Assembly (NCBI GenBank): GCA_021847065.1
Contig: JAJZVR010000001.1
Coordinates: 1-41,402 of the forward strand
Direction: 5' to 3'
Source of the DNA: Planctomycetota bacterium
GTDB lineage: Bacteria > Planctomycetota > Phycisphaerae > WQYP01
DNA length: 41,402 nucleotides
Shown piece after piece: positions 12,938-39,378 of the stretch. The notes below the pieces were generated by a model. The model did not search any database. It was not told where the DNA came from and was given only the letters and a program-made list of their open reading frames with translations. The translations under genes and the position numbers were made by a program. Every line of letters starts with the position of its first letter. The stretch's first letter is position 1.

Positions 12938-13140
12938 TTTAACCCTTCCCCTCACCCTTCCCCCTGGGGGGAAGGGCACCATTTCCGTTTAGTCCTTGTG
13001 TTACAACGGTTTATCGTATTTTTCGAGCGTGGCGCCTTGTCAGAAAGCGGCCTCTCTCCCTCACGGGAGAGAGGCCTTCGGCTCGCTCACGCTCGCCTCG
13101 GCGGCTCACGCCGTCCGCAGGTGGGGTGGGGGCAGAAAAA
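12938..13140. repeat. IR2-L: left copy of a ~203-bp hairpin-rich inverted repeat
   Basis: Reverse complement of 39175-39378 with about 3 substitutions and 1 indel by eye. Contains palindromes at 12955-12976 (CCCTTCCCCC..GGGGGAAGGG) and 13049-13076 (GGCCTCTCTCCC-TCAC-GGGAGAGAGGCC). Confidence 0.9.
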
Positions 13141-13200
13141 TATTTGCATATCTACTCATATATATGCACATGGTAATGTGCGCGCTGATAATGTGCATTA

Positions 13201-14538
13201 TCAGCGTTTCTTTTTGTGTTGCGTGCGTGGACGCAGTTTTCTTTTCTTCGGAATGGTTTGTTTCGGTTCTCCCATCCATCGTCGAATACGAGATTCAATA
13301 ACTTCACGCTTCGTGGAGAAGCGTTCGCGTGAGCGAGCGATGACTATGTGTCGGCGCCCGCTGCGGATCATGAGTGGTCGCATCGTGCTGACACGAAACG
13401 GGGTTTCGTACCCGTAGATCGTCAGCGGCTTGATGAGAGCCTGGTAGTTGGCAAGGCTGGTGAAAGCCGATGATTGGATGTCTTCACCGAATTGCCGGGC
13501 CAGTAAGGTTGCGTCGGATTCCCCCACACGGAAACTCATGATCGTACCGACATTGCCAAAGACCGCATTGGTGATCTCCGGTCGTGTCTGGCTGGTGTAC
13601 TGGGATGCCAGCGTCAGGGACAGGCCGTACTTTCTTGCTTCCGAGAGAATGGATGCAAACGAGTCGGTAGCAAAGTTGTGGTATTCATCCACGTAGAGGT
13701 GGAACGGCGTCCGTTGTGCCGGTGGGATGTCGGCTCGACTCAAGGCTGCAAGCTGGAACTGGGTGACCAAGAGTGATCCCAACAGGTTGGCCTTATCTTC
13801 CCCGACCTTGCCCTTGGCGAGGTTCGCGATGAGGATACGTGAGCGGTCCATCAGAAACCGGATATCAATGCTACTTGCGACTTGGCCAAGTATGTGACGG
13901 ATGGGTGGCGCCATCACCAATTGCCCGATCTTGTTCTGCACCGGGGCGATGACTTCCGTTAAAAATCGCCGGTCATAGCCGGCGAATTCTCCTGTCCAAA
14001 AGGCCCGTATCATCGGGTCCCTGACTTGCCGGACGACCCAGGTACGGTAGACCGGATCAATGAGCATCCGCTGCACGCCGAGAATCGTTACGTTCTCGCA
14101 TTCCAGCAGTGCGGCAATGCTGGTATACAGAATGTATTCCATCCGTGGCCCCCAGGAATCCCGCCAGATACTTTTCAGTGCGCCAACGATGGATGAAGCG
14201 ATGAGGTGGGGCACGTGGTTGGTGCCGGGACGCAACACGTTGAGACCGACCGGAAACTCATGGTCGGCGGGGTTGAGATATGCAACATGGTCGGTACGGT
14301 GCGGAGGGATGCAATCGAGAATGTCCTCGGCCAGATCACCGTGGGGATCGATCAGACCGACCCCATGACCTTTTTCAATGTCTTGGATGATCAGGTTGCG
14401 GATGAGGGTGGACTTGCCGGTACCGGTCTGACCGATGATGAAAAGGTGCTGCGCTCGGGCATCGGGTGATATACCGAAAAGCTGCTGGCCGCCCCAGACG
14501 TCGCGTTCGCCAATGTATGAAAGAGCATCGTCCCACAT
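13201..14538 (-). CDS. TraD/VirD4/HerA-like P-loop ATPase (soluble coupling-protein-like), copy 1
   Basis: Walker A FIIGQTGTGKSTL, Walker B FHLYVDEYHNF, followed by LSEARKYGLSLTLASQ (a TraG-D_C-like region). Basic C-terminal tail KKRKLRPRTQHKKKR. No TM segment. Confidence 0.85.
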   Translation of the reverse strand: MWDDALSYIGERDVWGGQQLFGISPDARAQHLFIIGQTGTGKSTLIRNLIIQDIEKGHGVGLIDPHGDLAEDILDCIPPHRTDHVAYLNPADHEFPVGLNVLRPGTNHVPHLIASSIVGALKSIWRDSWGPRMEYILYTSIAALLECENVTILGVQRMLIDPVYRTWVVRQVRDPMIRAFWTGEFAGYDRRFLTEVIAPVQNKIGQLVMAPPIRHILGQVASSIDIRFLMDRSRILIANLAKGKVGEDKANLLGSLLVTQFQLAALSRADIPPAQRTPFHLYVDEYHNFATDSFASILSEARKYGLSLTLASQYTSQTRPEITNAVFGNVGTIMSFRVGESDATLLARQFGEDIQSSAFTSLANYQALIKPLTIYGYETPFRVSTMRPLMIRSGRRHIVIARSRERFSTKREVIESRIRRWMGEPKQTIPKKRKLRPRTQHKKKR

Positions 14539-14780
14539 CCGACAGAGCCGCCATTCCAGAAAAAGAACAGCCCTCTGTGAAAGAGGGTCAAGGTGTGGTC
14601 CGCACCATGCGGGGCTTGCGGTCCGCCGGTACCGCTCGACATACGCAGTTGTTGGCGAGCCGAGTGGGTAATGGAAGCTCAGTCCGGGGTCCGAACGCAG
14701 TTCAGGCCCGAGGATATTGTAACGTATTCGATGCGTTGTGGGGTGTGGATATCATAAGTCATCCGTGACATAATTAAGTG

Positions 14781-15161
14781 ATGCAGTGGTGGACAAACAA
14801 TCAAGATAAAATATTGCGTAAGTTGGACGTTCAATTTCACCCAGAAGTTGACGCTATCGTCAGAGATGGATCCCTTGGCACATACGAAGATCTCATGCTT
14901 ACCGCGCTCGCTGCCAAAACTTGTGACGTCGCAGCACTTTTCGATGTTGGCTTGCGTGCTTTACCTACGAATGAAAATCGTCCCAGCGAGGCGTTGGCCA
15001 GCTACTTTTTCATTCTATCAACGATTAAGGGCTTGCCCCGCGAGCTTCAAGACCTTGCCACGAATACCATGGTCTATTGCAAAAACGATATGAACACACC
15101 GACAGGATCCCTGTCTCGCCTACGCAGCGATTATGAGTCTCTCCGCAGTCTGCTTAAGTAA
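14781..15161 (+). CDS. hypothetical protein
   Basis: 126-codon ORF with ATG at 14781 (GTG 14778 in the track). No recognisable motif. Confidence 0.45.
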   Translation: MQWWTNNQDKILRKLDVQFHPEVDAIVRDGSLGTYEDLMLTALAAKTCDVAALFDVGLRALPTNENRPSEALASYFFILSTIKGLPRELQDLATNTMVYCKNDMNTPTGSLSRLRSDYESLRSLLK

Positions 15162-15185
15162 ACTTTCGCCGCCGCCGCCGCCGGG

Positions 15186-15395
15186 TTATTTCTTATGCCC
15201 GTGGAAGCTGTGCCCGCTCTTCGTGCCATCGAGTTTCTCACGGATCATTGAATGGGAGTGATTTTCTTTGTCTCCACGTCCCACGCGATCTTCCGTGCGG
15301 AGAAAGTGCGTGTCCTTCGCGCCGTCCGAGTGCTTTTCAACCTTTTCCTTTACTTCGCCACCGGACGAATCCTTGAACCAATTTGACCAGCCCAT
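15186..15395 (-). CDS. small hydrophilic His/Lys-rich hypothetical protein
   Basis: 69-aa ORF convergent with 14781..15161 (MGWSNWFKDSSGGEVKEK...HSFHGHKK). No homolog recognised. Confidence 0.4.
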   Translation of the reverse strand: MGWSNWFKDSSGGEVKEKVEKHSDGAKDTHFLRTEDRVGRGDKENHSHSMIREKLDGTKSGHSFHGHKK

Positions 15396-15712
15396 GCGAC
15401 ACCAACCTTTCTGGTACGACTCACCATAAGTTCATTGTAGCAACCCGCGGCAGACCATTCAAAACAAATTTTCGTAGGTTCCTGATTGTTAGACCCGCCC
15501 AGACGTTGGCGAGGCCGTCACGCCGACAAATATTCCCGCGTAAGATATGCACACGATATATAAAACTTCTCTGTATACACGTAATGATCTTGCTCTCGCC
15601 CTACTTTCCATGCTTTACTTCTTCCCGGACCTGTTCATTTCAAAACCGCAACACCGTTCCGTGCTCGTTGCACGGCGACTGATGCTGCGCACATATCGAA
15701 AGGAGTTATTCA

Positions 15713-15979
15713 GTGGCCACATTTCCACCGGGACAGATTGTCATTACCCGCAACGCCCTCAATTCCCTCGAACAGACTGATGTCGATGCCGGCCTCGCCC
15801 GGCACCTGCGCGGCGACTGGGGCGACGTGGATGAAGAAGACCGGCGGACGAACGACCAGTCGCTCAAACACGGCGCTCGTCTTTTGTCCGTCTACCACGC
15901 CGCCAATGGTACCAAGTTCTGGATCATCACCGAAGCGGATCGCTCCGCCACGACCATCCTACTTCCCAGCGACTATTGA
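15713..15979 (+). CDS. conserved small plasmid/ICE-associated protein (GDWGD...EADRS family)
   Basis: GTG 15713 is preceded by AAAGGAG. The sequence HLRGDWGDVDEEDRRTNDQSLKHGARLLSVYHAANGTKFWIITEADRSATTILLPSDY matches a small-protein family I recall from plasmids and ICEs. This is a recollection, not a search result. Confidence 0.7.
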   Translation: MATFPPGQIVITRNALNSLEQTDVDAGLARHLRGDWGDVDEEDRRTNDQSLKHGARLLSVYHAANGTKFWIITEADRSATTILLPSDY

Positions 15980-15990
15980 AAGGAGTCACC

Positions 15991-16224
15991 ATGGAAGAAA
16001 ACTTCAAGGACACGGCAGACAGAGAACTCCAGCGTCTCGGTCTGGCCTTCCACGGCATCCATCTTGAATGCAGAACCTGCGACTGCGAAGTCTTCGCCAC
16101 TTCGCTTGCACTGCCCGAATCGTTCGGCTGGTCTGACATACAGCAAGTCAAGGGTGCCGAATACCACGGCATCTGTATGGCGTGTATCGGTTCGTCACCT
16201 CACAAGAAAGGAACATCATCATGA
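15991..16224 (+). CDS. small Cys-containing (zinc-ribbon-like) hypothetical protein
   Basis: ATG 15991 is preceded by AAAGGAG. Contains CRTCDC ... CMAC cysteine pairs. Its stop overlaps the next start (ATGA at 16221-16224). Confidence 0.6.
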   Translation: MEENFKDTADRELQRLGLAFHGIHLECRTCDCEVFATSLALPESFGWSDIQQVKGAEYHGICMACIGSSPHKKGTSS

Positions 16225-16550
16225 ATGACCACATTGATGTGGGTGCAACGCCTCCGATGGAGGACTGCGCCCAAGTCGGTACTGCCGACTACTTCGAACG
16301 TGCTCGTCGAGAGTGCCGAGTCTACATCAGCCTTCTACGCCGTGCCCTCGGCCCGGAGCCGACAGGTGCAACACTCCAGATCAAATCAAATCCCCACGAT
16401 TTCGGCACCTATCTGTCCGTGGTCTGTTACTACGATGTCTGTAATGAAGACGCACGCAACTACGCCTTCCGCTGCGAATCGGAAGGGCCGGACGAGTGGG
16501 ATGCTATTGCCCGACGAGAACTCAATCAGAAAGGAGTACACCATGAGTGA
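16221..16550 (+). CDS. hypothetical protein, mobile-element associated
   Basis: ATG 16221 is preceded by AAAGGAA. Begins MNDHIDVGATPPMEDCAQVGTADYFERARRECRVYISLLRR...HDFGTYLSVVCYYD. Overlaps the primase start by 8 nt. Confidence 0.65.
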   Translation: MNDHIDVGATPPMEDCAQVGTADYFERARRECRVYISLLRRALGPEPTGATLQIKSNPHDFGTYLSVVCYYDVCNEDARNYAFRCESEGPDEWDAIARRELNQKGVHHE

Positions 16551-17637
16551 TTGGATCAATTTTCGGGACGTCCGGAAGAATCTGTCATTTGAAGCAGTGT
16601 TGACGCACTACGGCGTTACGATCAAGAAACAGGCTGGCAACCGTCACGTCGGTCGCTGTCCCTTGCCGATGCACATTGGTAAGGGAAAAACCCCCTCATT
16701 TTCAGCAAAACTCGATATCGGGGTATTTCAGTGTTTCAGTTGCAAAGCGCATGGCACCGTCCTTCACTTTGCAGCACTTATGGAAGGCTTGAATCCGGAT
16801 GATCCACAGGACCTCCGGACGGTGGCATTGAAACTGCGGGATGTGTTTCTTACTACAGCAACGGCATCACCGAAGAAAAAGCTGGTGAGAAAGGAATCAT
16901 CTACATCGCCTCCTGCCGGAACCACTAGATCAAACCTTCCGGTACTGGTTAATCCACCCTTGGACTTCGAACTCAAGGACTTGGATGACGACCATCCGTA
17001 CCTAAAGGGCCGGGGATTTAATCCGCAGACCATCCGCCACTTCGGACTGGGTGTCTGTAGCCGTGGCCTCATGAAAGGACGAGTAGTGATTCCCCTGCAC
17101 AATGCCACTGGACGCTTGGTTGGATACGCTGGTCGTGTCGTTGATGACACTACGATCAGCGATGACAATCCACGATACCGTTTGCCTGGCCGCCGTGAGC
17201 GAGAAGGCAGGATTATCGAGTTCAAAAAGTCCCTCCTCCTGTACAACCACCACCGCCTGAAGCAGCCGGTCAACGACCTCATCGTCGTTGAGGGGTTTAC
17301 CTCGGTCCGGTGGCTGACTCAGTGGGGATATTCCTCGGTAGTGGCGATGTTCGGGTCGGATTGCTCCGAAGAGCAGGCTCGCCTGATCGTCCACGCGACG
17401 GCTCCGGACGGCCGGGTGTGGATATTCCCGGACACCGATGCCGCCGGTGAAAAAGGTGTGATGGTGATGCTTTCTCGCATATCACCATATCGCTGGACAC
17501 GGTGGATACAGACCCAGCAAGAACAGCCCACCGATTGCACGCCTGCCGATCTGGAAAAACTTCTGCCCGGCCTTGGTACCGAACGAAAGGAGGTGCTGCA
17601 TGACAACGGCAGTTTGTGGGCGGATACACCGGTATGA
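16543..17637 (+). CDS. DNA primase (CHC2 zinc finger + Toprim, DnaG/TraC-like)
   Basis: ATG 16543 is preceded by AAGGAG. CHC2 finger CPLPMHIGKGKTPSFSAKLDIGVFQCFSCKAHG. Toprim residues LIVVEGFTSV and IFPDTDAAGEKG. The ORF-track N-terminal extension from 16225 overlaps the upstream gene and is discounted. Confidence 0.88.
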   Translation: MSDWINFRDVRKNLSFEAVLTHYGVTIKKQAGNRHVGRCPLPMHIGKGKTPSFSAKLDIGVFQCFSCKAHGTVLHFAALMEGLNPDDPQDLRTVALKLRDVFLTTATASPKKKLVRKESSTSPPAGTTRSNLPVLVNPPLDFELKDLDDDHPYLKGRGFNPQTIRHFGLGVCSRGLMKGRVVIPLHNATGRLVGYAGRVVDDTTISDDNPRYRLPGRREREGRIIEFKKSLLLYNHHRLKQPVNDLIVVEGFTSVRWLTQWGYSSVVAMFGSDCSEEQARLIVHATAPDGRVWIFPDTDAAGEKGVMVMLSRISPYRWTRWIQTQQEQPTDCTPADLEKLLPGLGTERKEVLHDNGSLWADTPV

Positions 17638-18007
17638 GTTCATGGGATTCCATGGCTGCCGGTCTCGGTGCGCCCTGGAGATACTCCGGTTGCGTGATGG
17701 CCGCACTGTGGTCATTGCCACGGAAGTGGCGGACAATCCGGGCACCAGCGTGACCAATGCCTTTGAGCTATTGGCTACCGATGTATGCACCCGGTTCGCC
17801 ATTGATCCCCGGCGGCTGGCCTGGATTGAACACTACGGCTACCCTGCCGCAGCGTGTCCAACCGAAGCACGGGGCTTCGATATGGTGCGGTTTACGATTG
17901 CACCGGCTAAGGACGGCACATGCTTTTCAGATGTGTCCTGGCGGCCGATGCGTGACGCGGACTGGCGGGCACTGGGCCTGCTGCCGCGTCTGGCGGTTCG
18001 TTATTGA
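17600..18007 (+). CDS. hypothetical protein (last gene of primase operon)
   Basis: ATG 17600 is preceded by AAGGAGG. 135 aa. Followed by a strong terminator at 18028. Confidence 0.6.
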   Translation: MTTAVCGRIHRYEFMGFHGCRSRCALEILRLRDGRTVVIATEVADNPGTSVTNAFELLATDVCTRFAIDPRRLAWIEHYGYPAAACPTEARGFDMVRFTIAPAKDGTCFSDVSWRPMRDADWRALGLLPRLAVRY

Positions 18008-18027
18008 ATCGGTTCTGTTCTTTCCCT

Positions 18028-18058
18028 GGGCGACTCTGCGGAGTCGCCCTTTTTATTT
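18028..18058 (+). terminator. rho-independent terminator of the primase operon
   Basis: GGGCGACTC-TGCG-GAGTCGCCC followed by TTTTTATTT. Confidence 0.75.
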
Positions 18059-18420
18059 GCTCGGACCTACTAACGGTTTGTCCTACTGTACCAATAGCAT
18101 ACTGTCATCGGGCTTGGATTAAAAAAATACCAGACAAAGTGAGGATTTTTCTATCCGAACAGCAGCGTCGCAATGGGCTGGTGGAATAAAGTTGGAAGCG
18201 GCCACATCAAATCATTAGAGATTCCGGCAGAATTCCGTCAAGGTATCATAAACTGGGTCTGGCAATTTTTGAGCTTGATCCCTCAATGATTACTGATAAA
18301 CAGCAGAGGACGCAGGAAAATATAGAAAAACCAAAGGAAGAGTTTGCCAGTTTATTCGAGGCTGTAGTAAAAGTTCTTTCTGCCTATTGATTCTGTATTT
18401 CTATGTCAACAATTACCAAT

Positions 18421-18459
18421 AAAAAAAGCGTCTAAGAATCAAAGTGATTCAGAGACGCT
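18421..18459 (-). terminator. rho-independent terminator after the 316-aa PEP-CTERM gene
   Basis: Minus strand reads AGCGTCT-CT-GAATCA-CTT-TGATTC-TT-AGACGC followed by TTTTTTT. Confidence 0.6.
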
Positions 18460-18485
18460 TGAGCGTGTCTTTAAAAAAAACAGAA

Positions 18486-19436
18486 TTAGGCTACTGCTCG
18501 TCGCTTCTTCTTGAGAGAGACAAGGCCGACAATCGCTAAGCCACCGACTCCCTCGAGGAGTCCTGCCGCCGATGAGGGGGTAGGCACCGCAGAGGATGAG
18601 GATGAGGATAACTTGAAATAGAACAGCCCGTTGTTGGAGTTGTTGCCGAAATTGTAGGCAACAAGTCCCATACTGGTCAATTCAGTGCTCGTTGGCTGAG
18701 CCGCACCAACAGCAATTCCATTAAGGAAATATTGCGTGGTGGTACCCTGCTCTGTGCTGGTTGTGGTGAATCCAATTTGGTTGAATTCACCTGTATTAGC
18801 ATCACCAAGCTTGAGCCACTGAAGACCATTCCCAAGACTACCCGTAGCAGTATAGAATCCAGGGCCCTGGTATCCGGTATAAAGATAACCGGAGTTATCT
18901 GTCAAGTTTGACAGATAAAATATTCCAGCGTCAATGGGGGTGAGGTACAGCGGTATAGTACCGTTGGTAGAACTTCCCGCGTAACCGATATTTCCACTCA
19001 GGCCGACGATGACCGGAGGAGCGCTGAAATTTGCCCAATTATCGACGTACAACCCCACTGATACGGTTTGAACTGGTGTACTTGGGATGTCGTAATTCAT
19101 CCCTTGCCAATTATTACTTCCGCCAATAAAATTATTTTGAGTGGAAGGAACGACAGGATTGGCAATTTCCATTTCCAGGACATTGTTGGAGGAGCCAGAA
19201 GAAACCATCTCAAACACCAAAGGGGTGTAGTCATTTCCATACCAGGCGCCAGGAGTAGGGGTTTGGTATGCCGCTTGGTCATTGTTGAAATCAGTAGTAT
19301 CAGTACTACTGGTGACATTGGAATAGGGGGTTGCGGGAATATTTGGCGAAATTGCCAAATTACCCTTCGCCACCCCAGCTATTCCGACGACTGCTCCTAA
19401 CACAAGCAATGTCGTGGAACCATTTAGATACTTCAT
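18486..19436 (-). CDS. PEP-CTERM-anchored secreted protein (lectin / jelly-roll-like)
   Basis: Signal peptide MKYLNGSTTLLVLGAVVGIAGVAKG. C-terminal sorting signal VPTPSSAAGLLEGVGGLAIVGLVSLKKKRR (PEP-like motif, TM helix, basic tail). Confidence 0.85.
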   Translation of the reverse strand: MKYLNGSTTLLVLGAVVGIAGVAKGNLAISPNIPATPYSNVTSSTDTTDFNNDQAAYQTPTPGAWYGNDYTPLVFEMVSSGSSNNVLEMEIANPVVPSTQNNFIGGSNNWQGMNYDIPSTPVQTVSVGLYVDNWANFSAPPVIVGLSGNIGYAGSSTNGTIPLYLTPIDAGIFYLSNLTDNSGYLYTGYQGPGFYTATGSLGNGLQWLKLGDANTGEFNQIGFTTTSTEQGTTTQYFLNGIAVGAAQPTSTELTSMGLVAYNFGNNSNNGLFYFKLSSSSSSAVPTPSSAAGLLEGVGGLAIVGLVSLKKKRRAVA

Positions 19437-19574
19437 GAGAGTCTCCCTAAAAAAACAAAGAACTTAATCGTCGTTCCAGAACATCTGGAACGTAATCGAT
19501 TTATATTGCGACAAACACAATGATAGCCTGTTATCCATTCGGTAACAAGTGTCATCGGCGCGATATTGATAAGC

Positions 19575-19820
19575 ATGGCAAAAGCCCAACATGCACCACG
19601 ATACCGCTCACTGCCAGCGCTCCTGCGTGCAATGCGACAGGAGGCCCAGTTTACGCAACGAGAACTTGCTGCAAAATTGTGCGTTTCGCATGTGTTTGTT
19701 CATAAAAGCGAAATCGGTGAACGACGAGTGGATGTCACCGAGTTCATGGATTGGTGTCTGGCCTGCGGTAAAGACCCAGACCATGAATTTCGCCGGCTAC
19801 GGAAGTTACGCCGCGTGTGA
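19575..19820 (+). CDS. XRE-family helix-turn-helix transcriptional regulator
   Basis: QFTQRELAAKLCVSHVFVHKSEIGERRVDVTEFMDW is a typical XRE/Cro HTH. Lies immediately upstream of the HAF-lipase gene. Confidence 0.75.
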   Translation: MAKAQHAPRYRSLPALLRAMRQEAQFTQRELAAKLCVSHVFVHKSEIGERRVDVTEFMDWCLACGKDPDHEFRRLRKLRRV

Positions 19821-19951
19821 CCCTGACTGCCTACATTCACTGCCGCATTTCCTTGCGTCCGCTGTGGGATTTAGCTATGCTATCTTCTTGTTCACTGTCG
19901 ATATGTGGCCCCAGATGGTGGGCGCTAGTTTTTACCTGAAGGGAGAATACC

Positions 19952-22747: not shown

Positions 22748-22772
22748 AGCGTTATTATGAACTAAAAATTAG

Positions 22773-28357: not shown

Positions 28358-28360
28358 GTG

Positions 28361-31802: not shown

Positions 31803-31828
31803 TCTTGGTGATCGGAAAGGCTCTATTT

Positions 31829-33040: not shown

Positions 33041-33192
33041 TTCCAGCCTCTTTGCCGTAAAAGGGCTTGTCTCACGATCCGCTGAAAATGGAGAGCAGCA
33101 CTGGTAAACGATAGGTTAGCCAATTTGATGCGTTCTTTACGCACATCGTCTTTTGCAAAGAGTTTAGCAAACAACCGTTGTTGGTTTACCAT
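33037..33192 (-). CDS. 51-aa basic helical ORF translationally coupled to the kinase-fold gene
   Basis: Hand-translated as MVNQQRLFAKLFAKDDVRKERIKLANLSFTSAALHFQRIVRQALLRQRGWN. ATG 33192 is preceded by AAAGGAG at 9 nt. Its TGA overlaps the kinase TTG (TTGA). Too short for the ORF track. Confidence 0.35.
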   Translation of the reverse strand: MVNQQRLFAKLFAKDDVRKERIKLANLSFTSAALHFQRIVRQALLRQRGWN

Positions 33193-33550
33193 GGATAATT
33201 ACTCCTTTGTACCCTCTACAGATCGACCACGACATAACCCATTCTTGACCCTTTGGCATCGCCCAAACAGATAAAATTGACTTACAATGCATGATATCGC
33301 TCTGGACTTCTCGTGTCAAAAAATTCTTTCGGCTGTCTTATACGTTATACGCGAAGTCAACCACCGGTAATAGGCCAAGGCAGTCAATTGCCCTTGCGGC
33401 TTGACGAGCCGGTACAATCAAGGATGCGGTAGCGGATTACCCGTAGTCCTGTTCTGGTTACATTCCATCTGGTTTGCTCCCAGAGGCGATGTGCAATTGG
33501 AACGCATGCGGCCTGCCGGGAAGACCGTGCCGCTGCTTTCTCCGGCACTG

Positions 33551-34132
33551 CTACCGTTCCCACCTCCGGCAGTACTGCCGGTGGTAGTCGCGGATGAACC
33601 GATCGTACTCCCCGGGCGTGTCCTGTTTCTTGACCAGCAACTTGGCCAAACTCTCGGATACCTGGATCATCAGCCGTTTCATCTCCTCATCAGAGATACG
33701 CCCGTCGGCATGGATATCTTCGATGAAGCCATTGCGGAAGGCGTAGGCACACAGTGCGTTCGCCTCGTCGCGCAGCGTGAACGCCACTGGCATAGCCACC
33801 GCCTCTAACGGCGATGGCAAGTCTACACCAAGCAGGTCCTTGACCTTCGCCGCTCGCCGGTAGATTTCGTCCATTCGTACACCGAACGCAGATTCAAGTT
33901 CTCGGTTCAGTATACCGGGAACGCCTACGCCGCGGCTACCTACCGCATAGACAATGCCCCCGGCCCATCCTGCCGGCTTCTTTACCAATACATCTTTTGC
34001 CTGTTTGTGGGCCAGCAACAAATCCAAGGCTCTCAACGCGCGTTCCTGCAACGCCTCATCGGGGTGGGCGTCAAAGAATCGGTTCAAATGTTCACGGATC
34101 GCTATATCGCGATTCTGGTTGGTCGTATTCAT
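33551..34132 (-). CDS. hypothetical protein
   Basis: 193 aa from MNTTNQNRD. KPAGWAGGIVYAVG resembles a motif of an uncharacterised DUF family; this is an unverified recollection. Confidence 0.6.
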   Translation of the reverse strand: MNTTNQNRDIAIREHLNRFFDAHPDEALQERALRALDLLLAHKQAKDVLVKKPAGWAGGIVYAVGSRGVGVPGILNRELESAFGVRMDEIYRRAAKVKDLLGVDLPSPLEAVAMPVAFTLRDEANALCAYAFRNGFIEDIHADGRISDEEMKRLMIQVSESLAKLLVKKQDTPGEYDRFIRDYHRQYCRRWER

Positions 34133-34224
34133 AATCACCGCTCCGGTTACGATTGTACTGGATAGCCATCTATCGGTCGGTGGCTTGATTTTTACCACCA
34201 TTAATCAAGGCCAGTCCAACATTG

Positions 34225-35178
34225 CTACGTGATGCCAAGACAATGCAGGGCGGCGGCAGTCGCCACGCCGACGCCAACCTGATTGGCGACTTGCCAAACC
34301 CATGTTCCCGCCTTGGCTAAATACTGGAAGGCGGCGGGACCATCGCCGCGCTTGGCCGAATTCTCCGCCGCAGCGATCGCTCCGAGCGCAATATCGTGAT
34401 CCGCGTCAACAGCCCTTGACTTCAACGTGGCACGAAGCTTTTCTAGTTCATGCGTGAGTGCGTTCAAATCGATACTACCGGATGATTGACTCCAGATTTG
34501 ATTGAATGAAATATTCTCTGCGTGTGCGCCTCGACCAACTGCGGCTGCCTGACCCACCATGTAATTGTCGCCCATGATCATGACCGGTGCCGATGGCCTG
34601 CTCTTTCTCCGACCAGATTGAGCACTGAGTTCTTCCGCCATGGCTTCAAGGCAGTTGGCTATGTCCTCGGCCACCTCTTTCGGATCGCGGTATTTCCCGA
34701 AGTTCTGGTGCCACTGCGTGAAGTAGTCACAACCGATCTGAAACTCATCAAGCAACGTCCGCAATGTATTTCCACGCTCCCGCACCGTCGGTCGTGGATG
34801 TTTCCGCGCAAGCTCGGCTGTTTCATATAGCGCCTTCTGGATGTCGAGAAATCTCGGCGTCATCCGTCGGTACGATTCGGTCAATTCCTCATCCGGCTGT
34901 GCAAAGTGATCGCATTCTTCTTCCGCGACATATGCGAACGCTTTGCCGTTCCTGTTCGCATAATTCAGGCGATCTTCATGCTGATACACCCATACTGTGT
35001 CATTTGCAATCGTCACATAGCAGCAGTTTCCATATTTCTTCGCGGTTTCCTCAAGGAATGCCAGCCACAGCGGACATACATTTCGGAAATTACCGGGAAG
35101 TGATTTCAGCGCCTTCGCCAATGCAAGTTCGACGTTAGGAAACGCACCATTGGTTGATGACGTGGACATATTCAACAC
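34225..35178 (-). CDS. hypothetical protein (317 aa)
   Basis: Long ORF (GTG 35178 or ATG 35169). Cys-containing N-terminal domain, then a Gly/Ala-rich segment GDNYMVGQAAAVGRGAHAENISF and a helical amphipathic C-terminus. No family recognised. Confidence 0.65.
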   Translation of the reverse strand: MLNMSTSSTNGAFPNVELALAKALKSLPGNFRNVCPLWLAFLEETAKKYGNCCYVTIANDTVWVYQHEDRLNYANRNGKAFAYVAEEECDHFAQPDEELTESYRRMTPRFLDIQKALYETAELARKHPRPTVRERGNTLRTLLDEFQIGCDYFTQWHQNFGKYRDPKEVAEDIANCLEAMAEELSAQSGRRKSRPSAPVMIMGDNYMVGQAAAVGRGAHAENISFNQIWSQSSGSIDLNALTHELEKLRATLKSRAVDADHDIALGAIAAAENSAKRGDGPAAFQYLAKAGTWVWQVANQVGVGVATAAALHCLGIT

Positions 35179-35474
35179 CGTCTATCTCGGGCACCTTACC
35201 GCTGAGGGTAGGTAACAGGCCCGGAAAAGTTGAATTATAAACCAGCGGGAAGGCGTGGCCAATCGTACGGTCTGCGGCGGTAAGAAATCATGAGATTTTG
35301 AGACTGACACGAGTAACTCTTTAATACATCGCCACTTTAGGGTGGGGCTCTAAAATGGTCTCAAATACCATGACACTGTGGTGCGCCAAGCAGACTACTG
35401 CGATATATCCTCCAGCGGCGCATGTTTTAACGATTCCACGCCATTGCTGTTTATGCCATCAGGATTTTTGACGA

Positions 35475-35684
35475 CTACTTTGTATCGCCACCGGCAGCGG
35501 TGTCACTATTGAGCGCCGTAGTATCATTATGTGGCACGGTAGTGCTCGCGTCCGCATTCGTGGTCGTGACGGGCGCGTCTATTAATAGTGTTTCCAATGG
35601 GACCGGCGGTGTAGTAGTTTGTGCAGATCGCTGCTCATAGTCGGTCCCAGTGAGGACTTTCTGAATGTAACTTGAATTCGTCAT
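35475..35684 (-). CDS. small acidic Thr-rich protein, paralog B
   Basis: ATG 35684 is preceded by AAAGGAG and overlaps the upstream stop (ATGA). Shares T[DE]YxQxSAxTxxPxVPL[DE]xLL with the upstream ORF. Confidence 0.55.
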   Translation of the reverse strand: MTNSSYIQKVLTGTDYEQRSAQTTTPPVPLETLLIDAPVTTTNADASTTVPHNDTTALNSDTAAGGDTK

Positions 35685-35914
35685 AGTTGGCTCCTTTCGT
35701 CATTTTTCTTGTCGGTAGACACCGAAGCTTTTCTGATCATATCTGGTTGCGCTGATTGATGCGTTTCATTCAGTGTTATTGGTACTTCCGATGCAGCTCT
35801 GAGGAGGTCGTCCAATGGAACCTCTGGCATTGCTGTGCGCGCACTAAACTGAAGGTATTCAGTTTTATTAATCTCACTCGTTCGATCGGTTCGTTCGTCA
35901 TTTGGTTCGGTCAT
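35681..35914 (-). CDS. small acidic protein, paralog A
   Basis: ATG 35914 is preceded by GGAG. MTEPNDERTDRTSEINKTEYLQFSARTAMPEVPLDDLL... is paralogous to the next ORF. Confidence 0.55.
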   Translation of the reverse strand: MTEPNDERTDRTSEINKTEYLQFSARTAMPEVPLDDLLRAASEVPITLNETHQSAQPDMIRKASVSTDKKNDERSQL

Positions 35915-36434
35915 ATGAAATACTCCATGAAAAAGATGATGAAGGTGCTGCGTTCTGATGTGGCGAAAGATTGAGCACGCCAAACACGAGCATGCAAATG
36001 ACCCCAAGAAAAAGGCATATCATCGCTGCCCAGTTAAGATAGTCTATCCAAGGATTCAATTTTGGGTCGCCGAGTCTGTCCTCGTTATATTTTTGGGTGA
36101 AGTCTGTTTTGTGTTCCTTGATAAGTCTGTCAGCCCGTTCGATTTCCTCAGTATTTGCTCGATACGTTGTGCGAAGGTTAAATAAAACACATGCTGCTGC
36201 CGAAGCGAGAAAAAACCACGAAAATAACAAAAATTGTGGGCATACTGGGGACTTCCCAAAGACACTCAAAAGCGTCAGCGAAAGAACCAATGCCCCACCT
36301 GCTCCTGCGAGTGTGTATTTGTCAAAAAGTCCTACTGACTTTCGCCGTGCAACTTCCCACTGAATGCGGATTTCGGAATACTGCTTATGACTTGCCCGGA
36401 TAGCATCCTGCAACTGCTGTTTATCTGCTTCCAT
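35898..36434 (-). CDS. 3-TM membrane protein with N-terminal cytoplasmic helix
   Basis: Helix MEADKQQLQDAIRASHKQYSEIRIQWEVARRK. TM pair LAGAGGALVLSLTLLSVF and FLLFSWFFLASAAACVLF. Helical linker, then a third TM AAMICLFLGVICMLVFGVL. Confidence 0.7.
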   Translation of the reverse strand: MEADKQQLQDAIRASHKQYSEIRIQWEVARRKSVGLFDKYTLAGAGGALVLSLTLLSVFGKSPVCPQFLLFSWFFLASAAACVLFNLRTTYRANTEEIERADRLIKEHKTDFTQKYNEDRLGDPKLNPWIDYLNWAAMICLFLGVICMLVFGVLNLSPHQNAAPSSSFSWSISYDRTK

Positions 36435-36899
36435 TCTCAGAGTCCGTTCACGAAAGCCGTCAATGACTTAACCTATTGTATCAAGACGTGGGATGTGTCT
36501 CCAGTAATCCAGAATTTCCATGAGATTGCCTTGCACCGGGCCAGTTTAGCGTTGCTATGGTGACTGTCCGTCACACTATTTATTTGACCAATACGGAATA
36601 GTGACTTCCATTTATCAAACATTCTATTGAGGACGTATTCTTGTGAGCGGACACCTACCACTCGTCTAATTTATGACATAGCAAGATAGCGTATGGTATT
36701 ATTAAAATATCATCAAATTTATTAGCATAAGCACCCTCGTAAGATGCAATACGTAAAATCTTCTATAACCATTACAATTGCGTGTATGGTCATCGTCACA
36801 GTCTTTTATCTTGGTATTGAATATGAGAAGGTATTCAATGAGAATCCAACCCTTATAGCCAATTGCATTTCGACAATACCAAACGTATCACAATAACAA

Positions 36900-38855
36900 T
36901 CATGCGCTACCACGAATACGAACTAGAAAACGTGGGCGAGTTAAAACAAAACAGAAAAGAACAACATATATCACTGTCGATGTGGAGGGTTCAGGCACGG
37001 CAGTTCCCCCCAAGTCGAGAGTAAAATCGGTTGTTGCCCCGCTCCAAAAATTGTCTGCTGTGGGCACGCTCGGGCCGCCACCAAGGATCTGGGCATCTTC
37101 GGGAAATCCGTTTCCTGAAGCGGTCACGATTCCAGCCAGCGCGGTGCTCACATCTGACGCGAAAGTTGGAAAGTCCAACTGGTCGTGCGGGGATAGCGTA
37201 TCGAGCACCTGCTCGACAGCTATTGAGAGTTGCGATTGGCCCAAGTTGGAATAATACGACTCATACTTCTCGTTGGCGGCGGCGATGATGGCACTATGAT
37301 CCAGTCCTGCAAGGTATAGCGGACCTTTTGAACCTGGGCCCGCCCACATGCCGCCAGCGTAGCATGAGTCAATTATAAAAAGCTTGTTAACCCCAGTCCA
37401 TTCTGAGTTACCAAATAATTTGGCGAATGTTGGCGCGTCAATAGCATCCTCTGGAGGAGCTGATAACAAGCCGCTTTTGGAAACGACTCCTTGTAGCGCT
37501 AATTCGGTGGGAACCGAGGTTGTAGTGTATTGGTTGGGCCCAATTTGGCGTTGAATAGAAGCTTCCGTATTAGAATCATTCGGATCATAAGTGCCGTGAG
37601 TATTGATATAAATAATGGCGAGATCGTTCGGGTGTAGTTTAGCACCCATAGCGGAGATTGCTGAATCCAATGCGCTCACGTTACTCGTAGCCGAAATACC
37701 CGCAGCAGCTATACTCGTGTTATCCACGATACCACCAAGGTGTGCACCAAATGCCTGAGATACCTGGAAAGCATTAATACCTCCCAATAAGCCAGGGCTG
37801 AGATCGCTTGGCCCATTTGGTGGCCATGTTACTCCAAAAGATAGAATATGAACCGGTGGTAATCGTGCCGTCGCAATGGCCACTGGCACTTTATTAACCG
37901 TCCCCGCACTCCCATTTGAGACGCTGTAATACAGCCAGTTGCCATCCGTCGTCATGCTGGTCACGTTGCCAGCGGCAATTGTTGTGAGCGGTATGGATTT
38001 GGCTGCCGAGACTGAATACTGTTCAATCGTGTTCCCGTTGGTATAGAAAACATTTCCGTTTGTTGCAGTATATCCCGTGACGCTACCAGAAATAAGTGCC
38101 GTTGGCGTTCCACCGGTCTGTGCCACACTATCAATGCCGCCACCGCCAATGTTGAGATACAGAGAGCCGGAATCTGTGGCAAAGGGGGACGCATTTTGCG
38201 GCCCAGTCAGCGTTGATACCGACTGTGTGCCGTAGCTGAACTTCAAAATATCTTGCGACCAATAATCTTGAAAATACGCGCCGGTAGTGTCCGTCGTCAT
38301 ACCACGCACCCATACACCGCTGGCGACTGTCGTCGATGAGCCGCCCGTAGTGAGGACGGCATTGATGTCACGAAAGTTGCTTGAGTAGTAGACGTTGCCG
38401 TCTGACTGCCCCATGTATACCCCGCCATACGATGACGCAAGCGTCTGTGTCGTCCCAGTGGCAGGGTTCCCAGCGAACATGGTGGTGTTATCGTAATCAC
38501 CGTAGCCGCCAAACACTCCAGTGGAGCCAACCGAATAGTTGCCGATGCCGCTATACCCTCCAATGTCCGGTTCATAATTTGCTAGGCCAGAGAAAAGCAC
38601 GTTGGATGTTCCACCACCAGTGGAAACATTTGCGAGCGTATCGTTTGGATGAGTCGATGTGTCGACAAAATACAGGTTCCCGCCATACATTTGGAGGTCG
38701 TTGGGGTTATCCAAGCCGCTGACGACAGTTATCGCATCTGCCGCAACTCGTCCCGCCACACCTACGGCGAGCGATAGCGCCGCCGCCCATATATACGCGG
38801 CACCACGTCGGCTGACATTTCCACGACGGCACGTATTGAAGGTATTCCTTCCCAT
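36900..38855 (-). CDS. PEP-CTERM exoprotein: beta-propeller-like repeats + caspase/metacaspase-like (C14-like) domain
   Basis: Signal peptide AAYIWAAALSLAVGVAGRVAA. Repeated G-x-(L/V/F)-Y-(Y/F) blades (GNLYFVD, GNVYYSS, GSLYLNI, GNVFYTN, NWLYYSV). His-Cys dyad context AIIYINTHGTYD and KLFIIDSCYAGG. C-terminal VPEPSTSTVIYVVLFCFVLTRPR. Confidence 0.85.
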   Translation of the reverse strand: MGRNTFNTCRRGNVSRRGAAYIWAAALSLAVGVAGRVAADAITVVSGLDNPNDLQMYGGNLYFVDTSTHPNDTLANVSTGGGTSNVLFSGLANYEPDIGGYSGIGNYSVGSTGVFGGYGDYDNTTMFAGNPATGTTQTLASSYGGVYMGQSDGNVYYSSNFRDINAVLTTGGSSTTVASGVWVRGMTTDTTGAYFQDYWSQDILKFSYGTQSVSTLTGPQNASPFATDSGSLYLNIGGGGIDSVAQTGGTPTALISGSVTGYTATNGNVFYTNGNTIEQYSVSAAKSIPLTTIAAGNVTSMTTDGNWLYYSVSNGSAGTVNKVPVAIATARLPPVHILSFGVTWPPNGPSDLSPGLLGGINAFQVSQAFGAHLGGIVDNTSIAAAGISATSNVSALDSAISAMGAKLHPNDLAIIYINTHGTYDPNDSNTEASIQRQIGPNQYTTTSVPTELALQGVVSKSGLLSAPPEDAIDAPTFAKLFGNSEWTGVNKLFIIDSCYAGGMWAGPGSKGPLYLAGLDHSAIIAAANEKYESYYSNLGQSQLSIAVEQVLDTLSPHDQLDFPTFASDVSTALAGIVTASGNGFPEDAQILGGGPSVPTADNFWSGATTDFTLDLGGTAVPEPSTSTVIYVVLFCFVLTRPRFLVRIRGSA

Positions 38856-39174
38856 TGTTTTATCCCTTTCTTCTCATGCACCACATTCGATGACCCACGA
38901 TACCGAGAATTGGTGGTGCGATTACTCTCAATCCGTTCACTGTACGATCTGAACGGTACGAACATTCTGTTTGCCTGGCACAATTGAATAGTAATTATCA
39001 CGACCGATAACTACTGTGTCAATGTATCTGGGTGTAGATTATTCGATTTTTCTTTTCTTCTTAACCAGTTTTGTTCGCTTCCGCCGCCTGCGCGGTGGGG
39101 TGGTCGTGAGACTACCCTTGTTGTTTTTGTTTTTCATGTCCATTCCCTAAAGGACATCTTAAGGACATTTCCTG

Positions 39175-39378
39175 TTTTTCTGCCCCCACCCTACCTGCGG
39201 ACGGCGTGAGCCGCCGAGGCGAGCGTGAGCGAGCCGAAGGCCTCTCTCCCGTGAGGGAGAGAGGGCCGCTTTCTGACGAGGCGCCACGCTCGAAAAATAC
39301 GATAAACCGTTGTAACACAAGGACTAAACGGAAATGGTGCCCTTCCCCCCTGGGGGAAGGGTGAGGGGAAGGGTTAAA
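39175..39378. repeat. IR2-R: right copy of the ~203-bp hairpin-rich inverted repeat
   Basis: Reverse complement of 12938-13140. The differences seen are the palindrome-centre base, T/C at the GCGCCTTG/GCGCCTCG site, one extra C before CTCTCTCCC, and G/A in GGTGGGG/GGTAGGG. Confidence 0.9.

What the first reader, a model, noticed from the sequence alone, without database searches (positions are those of the whole stretch)
12938..39378. 26.4-kb cargo segment bounded by ~203-bp, ~98% identical hairpin-rich inverted repeats
12938-13140 and 39175-39378 are reverse complements with only ~3 substitutions and 1 indel. Both copies have the TTTAACCC end facing outward. Each copy holds two strong palindromes, a 10-bp C/G-rich stem and a 12-bp GGCCTCTCTCCC/GGGAGAGAGGCC stem. 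All mobility and cargo genes except the recombinase cassette lie between them. I see three possibilities: (a) terminal inverted repeats of a very large transposon-like or formerly linear element; (b) substrates for inversion of the whole 26-kb block; (c) two oppositely oriented copies of a genome-wide REP/MITE-like repeat that merely coincide with the island ends. I found no target-site duplication flanking them (left flank ...TCTGGCA, right flank AAGCGGT...), which weakens (a).
Basis: partly seen in the sequence, partly recalled or inferred. Interest (0 to 1): 0.65.

Follow-up and report, generated by a model that had tools for sequence, protein, structure and literature searches.

The report
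Repeats beside integrase sites, not transposon ends
The two 203-bp inverted repeats are real, but they lie just inside a 29-kb mobile island that a serine integrase inserted into a tRNA-Ser gene; they are conserved modules next to the integrase's recombination sites, not the ends of a giant transposon or a genome-wide repeat.

Summary
Windows 12938-13140 and 39175-39378 are reverse complements, with 200 of 204 aligned positions identical.

The interpretation mostly fails. An unoccupied site found in the same metagenomes shows that the mobile unit is window 10410-39466 (29,057 bp). It sits in the 3' end of tRNA-Ser(GGA), carries a CCG core at both junctions, and includes the large serine recombinase (LSR) cassette. 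The repeats lie 85 nt inside the right junction and 2.5 kb inside the left one.

I found no transposase, no target duplication and no dispersed copies.

Each repeat is the inner part of an att-proximal module: a conserved core, then a 75- or 85-nt adaptor, then an LSR half-site. One module ends at the right junction. The other ends at an intact attP-like site that sits inverted beside the LSR cassette. A second, overlooked inverted repeat of 149 nt lies there too; it is a copy of the recombinase gene's 3' end.

Both module positions recur in relatives, down to 68-73% repeat identity. They share invariant motifs and two hairpins whose stems differ in sequence.

Best reading: the excised circle carries two oppositely oriented attP regions around the LSR cassette. 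This part is inferred. Inversion within a population could not be tested.

It is a new variant of a known kind, of moderate interest.

The parts
10323..10410 (+). tRNA-Ser(GGA). Its 3' end is the left arm (B) of the chromosomal attachment site.
   Evidence: ARAGORN; Rfam tRNA, 53.3 bits.
10407..10409 (.). Left junction (attL-like, B|P') core CCG. The island begins at 10410.
   Evidence: Comparison of the empty-site contig with the sequence; coordinates checked.
10405..10553 (+). Repeat arm S: the P' half-site plus the last ~50 codons of the recombinase gene.
   Evidence: pair I1; 147/149 identical to the other arm. Its depth is about twice that of the unique recombinase sequence in run X1.
10380..11921 (-). 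Large serine recombinase (513 aa as read). The ORF runs across the junction into the antisense strand of the tRNA.
   Evidence: Pfam Resolvase, Recombinase and Zn_ribbon_recom, all above their cutoffs. Weak similarity to CcrB and XisF.
12037..12600 (-). orf187, unknown function, inside the recombinase cassette. It is a candidate accessory or directionality factor, by position only.
   Evidence: No hit in Pfam, PHROGs or NCBIfam.
12716..12864 (-). Repeat arm S': an inverted copy of the P' half-site plus the recombinase 3' end. It is followed inward by AT-rich sequence.
   Evidence: The same inner boundary appears in variant elements in runs X1, X3 and X6. An equivalent 159-nt pair (94%) is present in distant relative L008.
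12830..12895 (.). Internal intact attP-like site (P'|P, core CGG at 12860-12862). It is an imperfect palindrome: GACCAAAGCACTCC...GGAGTTTTGGTC.
   Evidence: P|B' is seen in L004 at the same chromosomal locus, B|P' is in the window, and B|B' is seen in X1 and X6. P|P' is the fourth member of that set. Sequence.
12863..12937 (-). 75-nt adaptor carrying the P half-site, between the internal site and the left repeat.
   Evidence: 97% identical in L004, 91% in L007 and 89% in L141-L144, always adjoining the repeat.
12938..13140 (+). Left 203-bp repeat, outer end at 12938.
   Evidence: Copies at the same position occur after the ATPase gene in L141-L144 (90%) and L008 (73% over the core).
13201..14538 (-). 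Coupling-protein-like (TraD/VirD4/FtsK-HerA class) ATPase. It reads outward toward the left repeat.
   Evidence: Pfam TrwB_AAD_bind, DUF87 and TraG-D_C. NCBIfam TraD-like hits below cutoff. More than 7,900 homologues.
14600..39096 (.). Body of the island. It holds a DnaG-type primase (16225-17637), a Replic_Relax protein (23197-24189), a second VirB4/coupling-like ATPase (25075-27291), a NYN protein, and cargo: a 931-aa PEP-CTERM protein, a short-chain dehydrogenase/reductase, and a kinase with a TCAD9 domain.
39097..39174 (-). 'Rint': conserved inner flank of the right repeat. It has a terminator-like hairpin (39097-39118) and two direct GATGTCCTTTA-type motifs (39148-39169).
   Evidence: Conserved next to the repeat in L007, L066 and L139.
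39175..39378 (-). Right 204-bp repeat, outer end at 39378.
39379..39463 (+). 85-nt adaptor carrying the X half-site, a diverged counterpart of P.
   Evidence: Last 31 nt are 14/31 identical to P; only 71 of 10,000 shuffles do as well. X is also found joined to recombinase-side arms of other lineages in runs X3, X4, X5, X17 and X21.
39464..39466 (.). Right junction (X|B') core CCG. The island ends at 39466.
   Evidence: Empty-site contigs begin matching the window here, preceded by the tRNA-Ser 3' end.
39484..39513 (+). Probable terminator hairpin of tRNA-Ser, displaced 29 kb by the insertion.
   Evidence: Sequence AAAAACCCTTGTCTAACAAGGGTTTTT. It lies directly downstream of the tRNA in the empty-site contigs.

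Best explanation
The window holds a 29,057-bp integrative element of the conjugative or mobilisable type. A large serine recombinase (LSR) inserted it into the 3' end of tRNA-Ser(GGA). The 203-bp repeats are not its ends. Each repeat is the inner, highly conserved part of an 'att-proximal module'. Reading outward, a module has: a conserved core with two 8-mers (GCTCACGC), GTCAGAAAGC, GGTGGGGTGGG and an inner hairpin; a variable stretch; an outer hairpin followed by TTTCCGTTT; a 75- or 85-nt adaptor; and an LSR half-site (P or X).

Shown: the right module ends in the right junction X|B'. The left module ends in an intact attP-like site, P|P', which lies inverted on the far side of the recombinase cassette. 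A 149-nt inverted copy of the recombinase gene's 3' end lies there too.

Inferred: after excision (left junction x right junction) the circle would carry the 2.2-kb recombinase core flanked by a composite inverted repeat of about 430-440 bp. That repeat consists of the 203-bp repeat, an adaptor with P or X, and P' plus 149 nt. The circle would thus have two oppositely oriented attP regions, X|P' and P|P', either of which can recombine with a tRNA attB. Integration through X|P' gives the arrangement in the window.

Inferred: the two repeat blocks stay near-identical (98-99%) through recombination or gene conversion between the inverted copies. The adaptors between the blocks are free to diverge or be swapped.

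Most likely role of the repeat core (low confidence): a cis-acting DNA site combined with back-to-back terminator-like hairpins. These would insulate the att/recombinase region from the body. The 8-mer pair would be a protein-binding site, possibly for the transfer or replication machinery encoded next to it.
For: Boundaries:
- Contigs in X1 (three, depth ~13 against ~18 for the occupied form) and in X6 read TGGGTTCGAATCCCACTCTCT followed by window 39464 onward. This is the tRNA-Ser 3' end seen at 10390-10409.
- The LSR domains are present.
- The half-sites reassort as expected for site-specific recombination: B|P' in the window; P|B' in L004 at the same rsmE locus, and in L007 and L066; P|P' in the window, L001 and L142; X|B' in the window; X joined to other recombinase-side arms in five runs.
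- One such arm (CTTTTTATAAATGTGG) is also found joined to P in L141 and L144.

Conservation of both positions:
- ATPase-repeat-adaptor-P|P' occurs in L141-L144 (repeat 90%) and in L008, an 847-kb contig (core 73%). L008 also has a 159-nt, 94% inverted pair around its LSR and is inserted in tRNA-Ala.
- Rint-repeat-adaptor-P|B' occurs in L007 (92%) and in L066/L034 (68%). L139 begins inside the repeat and continues into Rint.
- Invariant motif blocks are shared, and the hairpin stems differ in sequence between lineages.

Concerted evolution:
- Copies within the element are 98% (repeat) and 99% (149-nt pair) identical, against about 90% and about 71% to copies at the same position in other elements.
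- In X1 the 149-nt block has twice the depth of the unique recombinase sequence.
Against: - No single relative has been shown to carry both repeat copies. The far ends of the L008, L139 and L141 elements could not be reached.
- The circular junction X|P' with this element's own P' was not found. So the two-attP circle is inferred, not seen.
- Known LSRs need only about 50-bp sites and no flanking module, so a role for the repeat in recombination has no precedent.
- L141 and L144 carry only a 3' fragment of a different LSR beside P, with no second repeat arm within 10 kb. The dual-site model does not predict this.
- P and P' are not symmetric about the CCG core as a textbook attP would be.
- Short-read assemblers cannot phase the orientation of segments bracketed by 149- and 203-nt inverted repeats. 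The orientation drawn in the window may therefore be one of several isomers.
- The terminator and binding-site roles rest on sequence pattern only. The simple terminator scan did not call the two hairpins.
Confidence: 0.55

Rival explanations
1. The repeats mainly serve as substrates for flip-flop inversion of the 26-kb body, by homologous recombination between 98%-identical inverted repeats. The element would exist as orientation isomers, as with the 2-micron plasmid or plastid inverted repeats.
For: - The P-type arm is linked through the repeat to the ATPase end in the window, L141 and L008, but to the Rint end in L007 and L066. An exchange inside the repeats must have happened at least once.
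- The copies are homogenised: 98% to each other, about 90% to copies at the same position in other elements.
Against: - No within-sample heterogeneity could be examined. Only 31-mer unitigs were available, and they cannot span 203 nt.
- The strongly conserved sequence motifs and hairpins go beyond what a mere homology substrate needs.
- No phenotype or gene fusion would change on flipping.
Confidence: 0.3
2. The conserved core of each repeat is an origin-type site, duplicated on opposite strands. It could be an origin of transfer, a recognition site for the neighbouring FtsK/TraD-like ATPase, or a priming signal for the element's primase. Its closeness to the att sites would be incidental.
For: - The element encodes a Replic_Relax protein, two conjugation-type ATPases and a DnaG-type primase.
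- The core has two or three direct GCTCACGC 8-mers that are invariant across relatives, and hairpins with a strong single-strand fold (z = -5.85).
- The ATPase gene ends 61 nt from the left repeat, and 69 nt from the repeat-like core in L008.
Against: - There is no similarity to any described origin or Rfam family, and no nick-site evidence.
- The module keeps a fixed position next to the LSR half-site in every relative (75 to about 220 nt). An incidental location does not explain this.
- The 8-mer is not enriched elsewhere in the element.
Confidence: 0.25
3. The repeats are the terminal inverted repeats of a 26.4-kb transposon or former linear replicon, which inserted into a small recombinase-only element between the 75-nt and 85-nt adaptors.
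For: The outer boundaries at TTTAACCC are sharp. The adaptors on the two sides are unrelated in most of their length.
Against: - No target duplication.
- No transposase, protein-primed polymerase, terminal protein or protelomerase candidate in three libraries.
- The repeat-adaptor junction is conserved in relatives at 68-92% identity, so the repeat is never seen in an unrelated context.
- The empty site lacks the body and the cassette together.
Confidence: 0.05
4. The repeats are two chance copies of a dispersed REP/MITE-like repeat of the host genome.
For: In runs X3 and X6 the inner core reaches depths of about 100-166, against 0-8 for this element's unique sequence. So the core is far more abundant there than this particular element.
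Against: - The excess depth is explained by co-occurring related elements. Variant adaptors, variant cassettes and variant inner flanks appear in the same runs.
- There was one match in 185,579 species genomes, itself in the same att-proximal context. There were none in 2.9 million viral contigs, the plasmid collection or E. coli.
- Every recovered copy lies beside an LSR half-site.
Confidence: 0.04

Closest known systems
Large-serine-recombinase integrative elements and prophages (phiC31, Bxb1, SPbeta SprA, Tn5397 TndX, SCCmec Ccr, fdxN XisF)
   Same: The recombinase has the Resolvase, Recombinase and zinc-ribbon domains. Insertion is precise, with only a few bases of shared core and no target duplication. 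Half-sites reassort as attB, attP, attL and attR.
   Different: Described systems have one short attP and no need for flanking DNA (established knowledge; e.g. PMC1470463 and PMC4111918). Here an intact attP-like site stays inside the integrated element in inverted orientation. It comes with a 149-nt inverted copy of the recombinase 3' end and a 203-bp conserved module beside each element-side half-site. The recombinase ORF also crosses the att site.
Engineered cassette-exchange landing pads with two inverted attP sites (e.g. MiMIC for phiC31)
   Same: Two attP sites in inverted orientation bracket a cassette (papers listed, e.g. PMC4379497).
   Different: Those are artificial constructs. I found no natural counterpart in the literature searches. 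Here the bracketed cassette is the recombinase gene itself, and exchange of the cassette is only suggested: near-identical bodies carry different recombinase-side arms (L142 against L141/L144).
Integrative conjugative or mobilisable elements, including actinomycete AICEs that use FtsK-like translocases
   Same: Insertion in a tRNA gene, a Replic_Relax protein, coupling-protein/FtsK-HerA-class ATPases, a primase and variable cargo. A NUDIX gene is present in relative L009.
   Different: No type IV secretion membrane components were recognised. The hits to the TraD, VirB4 and CedD models are far below curated cutoffs. The transfer route is unknown. The host is probably a Planctomycetota bacterium, judged only from the label of L007.
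Inverted-repeat flip-flop systems (2-micron plasmid, plastid inverted repeats) and Hin/Gin-type invertible segments
   Same: A large unique segment is bracketed by near-identical inverted repeats that evolve in concert.
   Different: This comparison rests on my own knowledge. No population heterogeneity was demonstrated here. The element's recombinase acts at sites outside the repeats, and nothing suggests a gene-expression switch.

Membership tests
Large-serine-recombinase integrative element | Encodes a recombinase with serine-catalytic, recombinase and zinc-ribbon domains. | tested here: met
   PF00239 (73.7 bits), PF07508 (57.2 bits) and PF13408 (33.4 bits), all above cutoffs.
Large-serine-recombinase integrative element | Precise insertion relative to an empty site, with a very short shared core and no target duplication. 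| tested here: met
   Empty-site contigs in X1 and X6. CCG core at 10407-10409 and 39464-39466.
Large-serine-recombinase integrative element | Element-side arms of the two junctions join to form attP in an excised circle. | tested here: inconclusive
   P|P' exists, but inside the integrated island. X joined to this element's own P' was not found. X joined to the P' of other lineages was found.
Large-serine-recombinase integrative element | A recombination directionality factor controls excision. | not tested
   orf187 is a positional candidate only, with no family hit.
Transposon with terminal inverted repeats (DDE or Tn7-like, casposon, linear replicon) | The inverted repeats are the exact ends of the mobile unit. 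| tested here: not met
   The ends defined by the empty site lie 85 nt and 2,528 nt outside the repeats.
Transposon with terminal inverted repeats (DDE or Tn7-like, casposon, linear replicon) | Target-site duplication. | tested here: not met
   The flanks are ...TTTCTGGCA and AAGCGGTAT....
Transposon with terminal inverted repeats (DDE or Tn7-like, casposon, linear replicon) | A transposase, protein-primed polymerase or telomere enzyme is encoded inside. | tested here: not met
   None found among the 22 ORFs of 99 aa or more between the repeats that I scanned against Pfam; ten of them were also scanned against PHROGs or NCBIfam. Several ORFs have no hit at all, so a very divergent enzyme is not excluded.
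REP/MITE-like dispersed repeat | Many copies scattered through a genome, independent of context. | tested here: not met
   One hit in the genome collection, in the same context. None in the viral, plasmid or E. coli collections. Caveat: the host's own complete genome was not available.
Programmed invertible segment | Both orientations coexist in one population. | not testable with these tools
   All runs holding the sequence are kept only as short unitigs. No raw or long reads were available.
Programmed invertible segment | The recombinase acts at the inverted repeats. | tested here: not met
   The junction breakpoints shared with L004, L007, L066 and the empty site lie at the CCG cores, outside the repeats.
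Integrative conjugative or mobilisable element | A relaxase and a coupling protein; for self-transfer, a mating-pore system. | tested here: inconclusive
   Replic_Relax is above cutoff (66.3 bits). The coupling-protein-like ATPase matches PF10412 (35.2 bits). The NCBIfam conjugation models all score far below cutoff. No pore components were recognised.

The most novel reading that the evidence does not exclude
This element family naturally carries two oppositely oriented, functional attP regions around its serine-integrase cassette. Each attP would be coupled to a conserved ~200-bp module. The element could then integrate in either orientation, and the integrase cassette could be exchanged between element bodies: a natural counterpart of recombinase-mediated cassette exchange. 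The inverted copy of the integrase 3' end would be kept identical for a reason, for example as an antisense regulator or as the second P' arm.
Probability: 0.3. Interest if true: 0.7.

Novelty: new variant of a known kind. Interest (0 to 1): 0.45.

Why it matters
If the two-attP architecture is functional, it is an undescribed way for a serine-integrase element to organise its attachment region. The element would keep a spare, intact attP inside the integrated copy and would bracket the integrase gene with exchangeable arms. That bears on how integrase modules are shuffled between mobile elements. It also bears on how island boundaries should be called: here the obvious inverted repeats are not the boundaries. 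It may also interest those mining serine integrases and their sites as genome-engineering tools.

The coupling-protein-like ATPase has thousands of homologues in environmental metagenomes, and the few that sources label come from Planctomycetota, Verrucomicrobiota, Acidobacteriota and Acidimicrobiaceae genomes. Mobile elements in such uncultured bacteria are poorly described, so a conserved cis-acting module there is a useful handle.

If instead the repeats are only homogenised duplicates, the finding is an ordinary genomic island with unusual internal repeats.

Tried and rejected
- BLAST of the repeat region against E. coli genomes and of the 203-bp repeat unit against plasmids found nothing. 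Exact terminal 27-mer: no viral contig, one genome contig. Exact 31-mer of the core in metagenome contigs: nothing.
- A looser two-block pattern returned 120 loci. Only two (L034 and L066) were real relatives. The rest were an unrelated, mostly gut-metagenome sequence, so the pattern was too permissive.
- Rfam gave only the tRNA.
- The promoter and terminator scans gave nothing inside the repeats.
- Exact look-ups of Ppk, the 338-aa oxidoreductase and the recombinase found no record. A long empty-site contig could therefore not be fetched.
- Relatives P0013 (L015/L016) and P0005 (L009-L014) have other gene orders and no repeat in the stretch held.
- The ATPase search against plasmids gave at best 41% identity. 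The viral-contig searches with the ATPase and the recombinase gave only distant or uninformative loci.
- The second-ATPase search did not include the 847-kb L008 contig, so L008's far end stayed out of reach.
- Metatranscriptomes of the same study hold none of the sequence.
- I considered a CTX-phage-like folded single-strand attP. I rejected it on mechanism: a serine recombinase cutting both strands of a hairpin stem would leave the chromosome broken with hairpin-capped ends.
- I considered reading P as an attB-type half-site, because the TTCGAA motif sits 5 nt closer to the core in the tRNA arm than in P and X. I left this open as unproven.

Full report
**1. Observation**

The repeat is real and matches the description. 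The repeat finder reports it as two abutting pairs split by a 1-nt indel. A global alignment of 12938-13140 with the reverse complement of 39175-39378 gives 200 identical columns of 204: three substitutions and one inserted C.

Identity begins abruptly at TTTAACCC on the outer side. It stops at CAGAAAAA on the inner side.

Both palindromes are there. The unit folds far better than shuffled sequence (-53.3 against -33.2 +/- 3.4 kcal/mol, z = -5.85). No target duplication flanks it.

An independent assembly from another sample (ERZ27237470 k141_678625) reproduces the left repeat, its flank and the start of the next repeat exactly.

It brackets the recombinase cassette.

**2. What the island is**

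- tRNA-Ser(GGA) ends at 10409/10410.
- Next to it, reading toward the tRNA, is a large serine recombinase (LSR) with all three signature domains.
- Between the repeats lie a coupling-protein-like ATPase, a DnaG-type primase, a Replic_Relax protein, a second VirB4/coupling-like ATPase, a NYN protein and cargo.
- No transposase, protein-primed polymerase, telomere enzyme or phage structural gene was recognised in Pfam, PHROGs or NCBIfam.
- The sequence comes from mine-drainage metagenomes.
- The only hit in the genome collection is a Planctomycetota genome assembled from a metagenome.

**3. True boundaries**

I laid the contigs of four runs on the right junction. X1 (three contigs) and X6 contain TGGGTTCGAATCCCACTCTCT followed directly by window 39464 onward (CCGTTAAAAACAATTG...). 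That is the 3' end of the tRNA-Ser gene joined straight to a terminator hairpin, which in the window lies 29 kb away.

The insertion is therefore 10410-39466 (29,057 bp), with a CCG core at 10407-10409 and 39464-39466. The recombinase cassette belongs to the same inserted unit.

The right repeat ends 85 nt inside the right junction. The left repeat starts 2,528 nt inside the left one. This rules out the repeats as termini of the mobile unit.

**4. The recombination sites**

Name the arms as follows:
- B: the tRNA end.
- B': the terminator side.
- P': the start of the 149-nt repeat.
- P: window 12863-12895, read on the minus strand.
- X: window 39433-39463.

The window has B|P' at 10409, P|P' at 12860-12862 (inverted), and X|B' at 39464.

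A related strain (L004, same rsmE locus, 96% identical flank) has P|B', followed by the 75-nt adaptor and the repeat. So do L007 and the much more distant L066, each next to a terminator.

With B|B', the set B|B', B|P', P|B', P|P' is the classic attB/attL/attR/attP quartet. The internal site in the window therefore has the sequence of an attP. It is an imperfect palindrome (GACCAAAGCACTCC ... GGAGTTTTGGTC).

X is a diverged counterpart of P: 14 of the last 31 nt are identical, and only 71 of 10,000 shuffles do as well.

X is also found joined to other recombinase-side arms in five runs. One of these arms (CTTTTTATAAATGTGG) is found joined to P in L141 and L144. These loci share an identical ATPase, repeat and adaptor with L142, which instead carries the window's P' arm. 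The arms therefore reassort in nature at exactly this point.

**5. Conservation of the modules**

The arrangement 'ATPase - repeat - adaptor - P|P'' recurs in two sets of relatives:
- L141-L144: repeat 90% identical, ATPase DNA 85.6% identical.
- L008: an 847-kb contig, ATPase 69% identical. Its LSR is again bracketed by an inverted pair (159 nt, 94%) made of the recombinase 3' end. The element sits in tRNA-Ala, and the internal site carries a fragment resembling a tRNA-Ser 3' end.

The arrangement 'Rint - repeat - adaptor - P|B'' recurs in L007 (92%) and L066/L034 (68%). The 24.2-kb contig L139 starts inside the repeat and runs into Rint.

Several features are shared across all of these:
- The blocks TGTCAGAAA(G/C)C, TCGCTCACGCTC, GCGGCTCACGCCG and GGTGGGGTGG, which are invariant or differ by a single base.
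- TTTCCGTTT, which is conserved in most (TTTTCATTT in L007).
- Two hairpins that keep their positions while their stems differ in sequence.

Each hairpin is followed by a T-rich tract on opposite strands (TTTCCGTTT inward, CTTTCTGAC outward). That is why I read them as back-to-back terminator-like elements. The simple terminator scan did not call them.

**6. Concerted evolution**

Within the window the repeat copies are 98% identical and the 149-nt copies 99%. Copies at the same position in other elements are about 90% and about 71% identical. In L008 the pair is 94% identical.

Both positions of the repeat are found in distant relatives, so the pair is probably old and kept uniform by exchange between the copies.

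The adaptors between the two homogenised blocks are only about 50% alike. Each adaptor is bounded on one side by the site-specific core and on the other by the start of the repeat. That pattern is expected if adaptors are swapped by one site-specific and one homologous exchange.

The P arm is linked to the ATPase end in the window, L141 and L008, but to the Rint end in L007 and L066. At least one exchange inside the repeats must therefore have inverted the body relative to the arms.

**7. Copy number**

- In X1 the outer part of the repeat has about two to three times the depth of the unique neighbouring sequence, consistent with roughly two copies per element given co-occurring variants.
- In X1 the 149-nt block has twice the depth of the unique recombinase sequence.
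- In X3 and X6 the inner core is up to about 30 times deeper than this element's unique sequence. The same runs hold variant adaptors, cassettes and inner flanks. The excess therefore reflects a family of related elements, not a dispersed repeat.
- Collection scans gave one genome hit and no viral, plasmid or E. coli hit.

**8. Mechanism proposed**

Shown: the LSR island, its junctions, the internal attP-like site, the two repeat pairs and their conservation.

Inferred:
- Excision would give a circle in which the 2.2-kb recombinase core is flanked by a composite inverted repeat: the 203-bp repeat, an adaptor with X or P, and P' plus 149 nt. The circle would thus have two inverted attP regions.
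- Integration through X|P' yields the window.
- Integration through P|P' would yield the opposite orientation.
- The recombinase ORF crosses the att site, so its C-terminal tail depends on the partner arm. As I read the sequence, the tail beyond the core arginine codon is 7 residues through the tRNA, 20 through P and 31 through X, with the last stop being the TAA of TTTAACCC.

The function of the conserved core remains open. The candidates are an insulator or terminator pair plus a protein-binding site, an origin-type site, or a mere homology block.

**9. What is not settled**

- No relative was shown to carry both repeat copies on one contig.
- The circular junction was not seen.
- L141 and L144 have only a 3' fragment of another LSR beside P, with no partner repeat within 10 kb.
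- The orientation of segments bracketed by the inverted repeats cannot be phased from short-read assemblies.
- Population-level inversion could not be tested, because only unitigs are available.
- Literature searches found no natural system with two inverted attP sites. They found only engineered cassette-exchange pads. This is absence of evidence within one text library.

**10. Verdict**

The transposon-end and REP/MITE readings are rejected. The inversion reading is only indirectly supported.

The locus is an LSR-integrated tRNA island with an unusual, conserved pair of att-proximal modules and an internal inverted attP. It is a new variant of a known kind, of moderate interest.

Noticed in passing
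window 10405-10553 and 12716-12864: A second inverted repeat (149 nt, 147/149 identical) brackets the recombinase cassette. It consists of the recombinase-side half-site plus the last ~50 codons of the recombinase gene. An equivalent 159-nt pair exists in the distant relative L008.
   Followed up: yes
window 10380-10410; also 12734-12925 and 39379-39466: The recombinase ORF reads across the attachment site. In the integrated state it ends in the antisense strand of tRNA-Ser (...KR-REWDSNPR). Across P it would end ...KR-SALVKLRTAVAQEHHTPKCP. Across X it would run 31 residues on, to the TAA of the repeat's TTTAACCC end. The C-terminal tail therefore depends on the recombination state.
   Followed up: partly
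window 39148-39169 (minus strand) and 12915-12925: Two direct GATGTCCTTTA-type motifs sit just inside the right repeat. They are conserved in L007, L066 and L139. A related AATGTCCTTGA lies in the 75-nt adaptor in the same reading direction. They may be protein-binding sites flanking the repeat.
   Followed up: partly
window 39384-39389: A perfect TATAAT hexamer in the 85-nt adaptor faces outward, toward the attachment site. In a circle it would point antisense into the recombinase 3' end. No good -35 element was seen.
   Followed up: no
L008 11690-11830: Between the repeat-like core and the internal site, L008 carries a fragment resembling a tRNA-Ser 3' end (GGTTCGAATCTCGTTCTCTCCG) and a second T-arm-like piece (GGTTCGAGTCC). 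Yet the element is inserted in tRNA-Ala. These may be relics of earlier attachment sites.
   Followed up: partly
L141 11613-12034 and L144 2883-3304: Elements with an ATPase, repeat and adaptor identical to those of L142 carry, beside the P arm, only the C-terminal ~113 codons of a different recombinase lineage (36% amino-acid identity). An MFS transporter gene follows. This may be a swapped or decayed cassette.
   Followed up: partly
window 13201-14538: The coupling-protein-like ATPase has more than 7,900 homologues at around 60% identity in metagenomes. The few that carry a source label come from Verrucomicrobiota, Acidobacteriota and Acidimicrobiaceae genomes. Many sit on contigs of 24-32 kb, which may be whole elements.
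   Followed up: partly
window 27662-33040: The cargo includes a NYN-domain protein, a kinase-like protein with a TCAD9 (ternary-complex-associated) domain and a short-chain dehydrogenase. This may be a conflict or defence module. Relatives carry restriction-modification-like genes (L139) or thymidylate-synthase/hydroxymethyl-dUMP-kinase-like genes (L141) at comparable places.
   Followed up: no
window 19952-22747: A 931-aa protein with a C-terminal PEP-CTERM sorting signal lies inside the island. L066 has PEP-CTERM and giant repeat proteins next to its copy of the module.
   Followed up: no
L010 13430-13471: In the 89%-identical ATPase relatives L009 and L010, the ATPase is followed by a 672-750-aa protein with an RNase_H_2-type domain. 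After it comes a 42-nt match to the window's right inner flank (39051-39090). The contig ends before any repeat.
   Followed up: no
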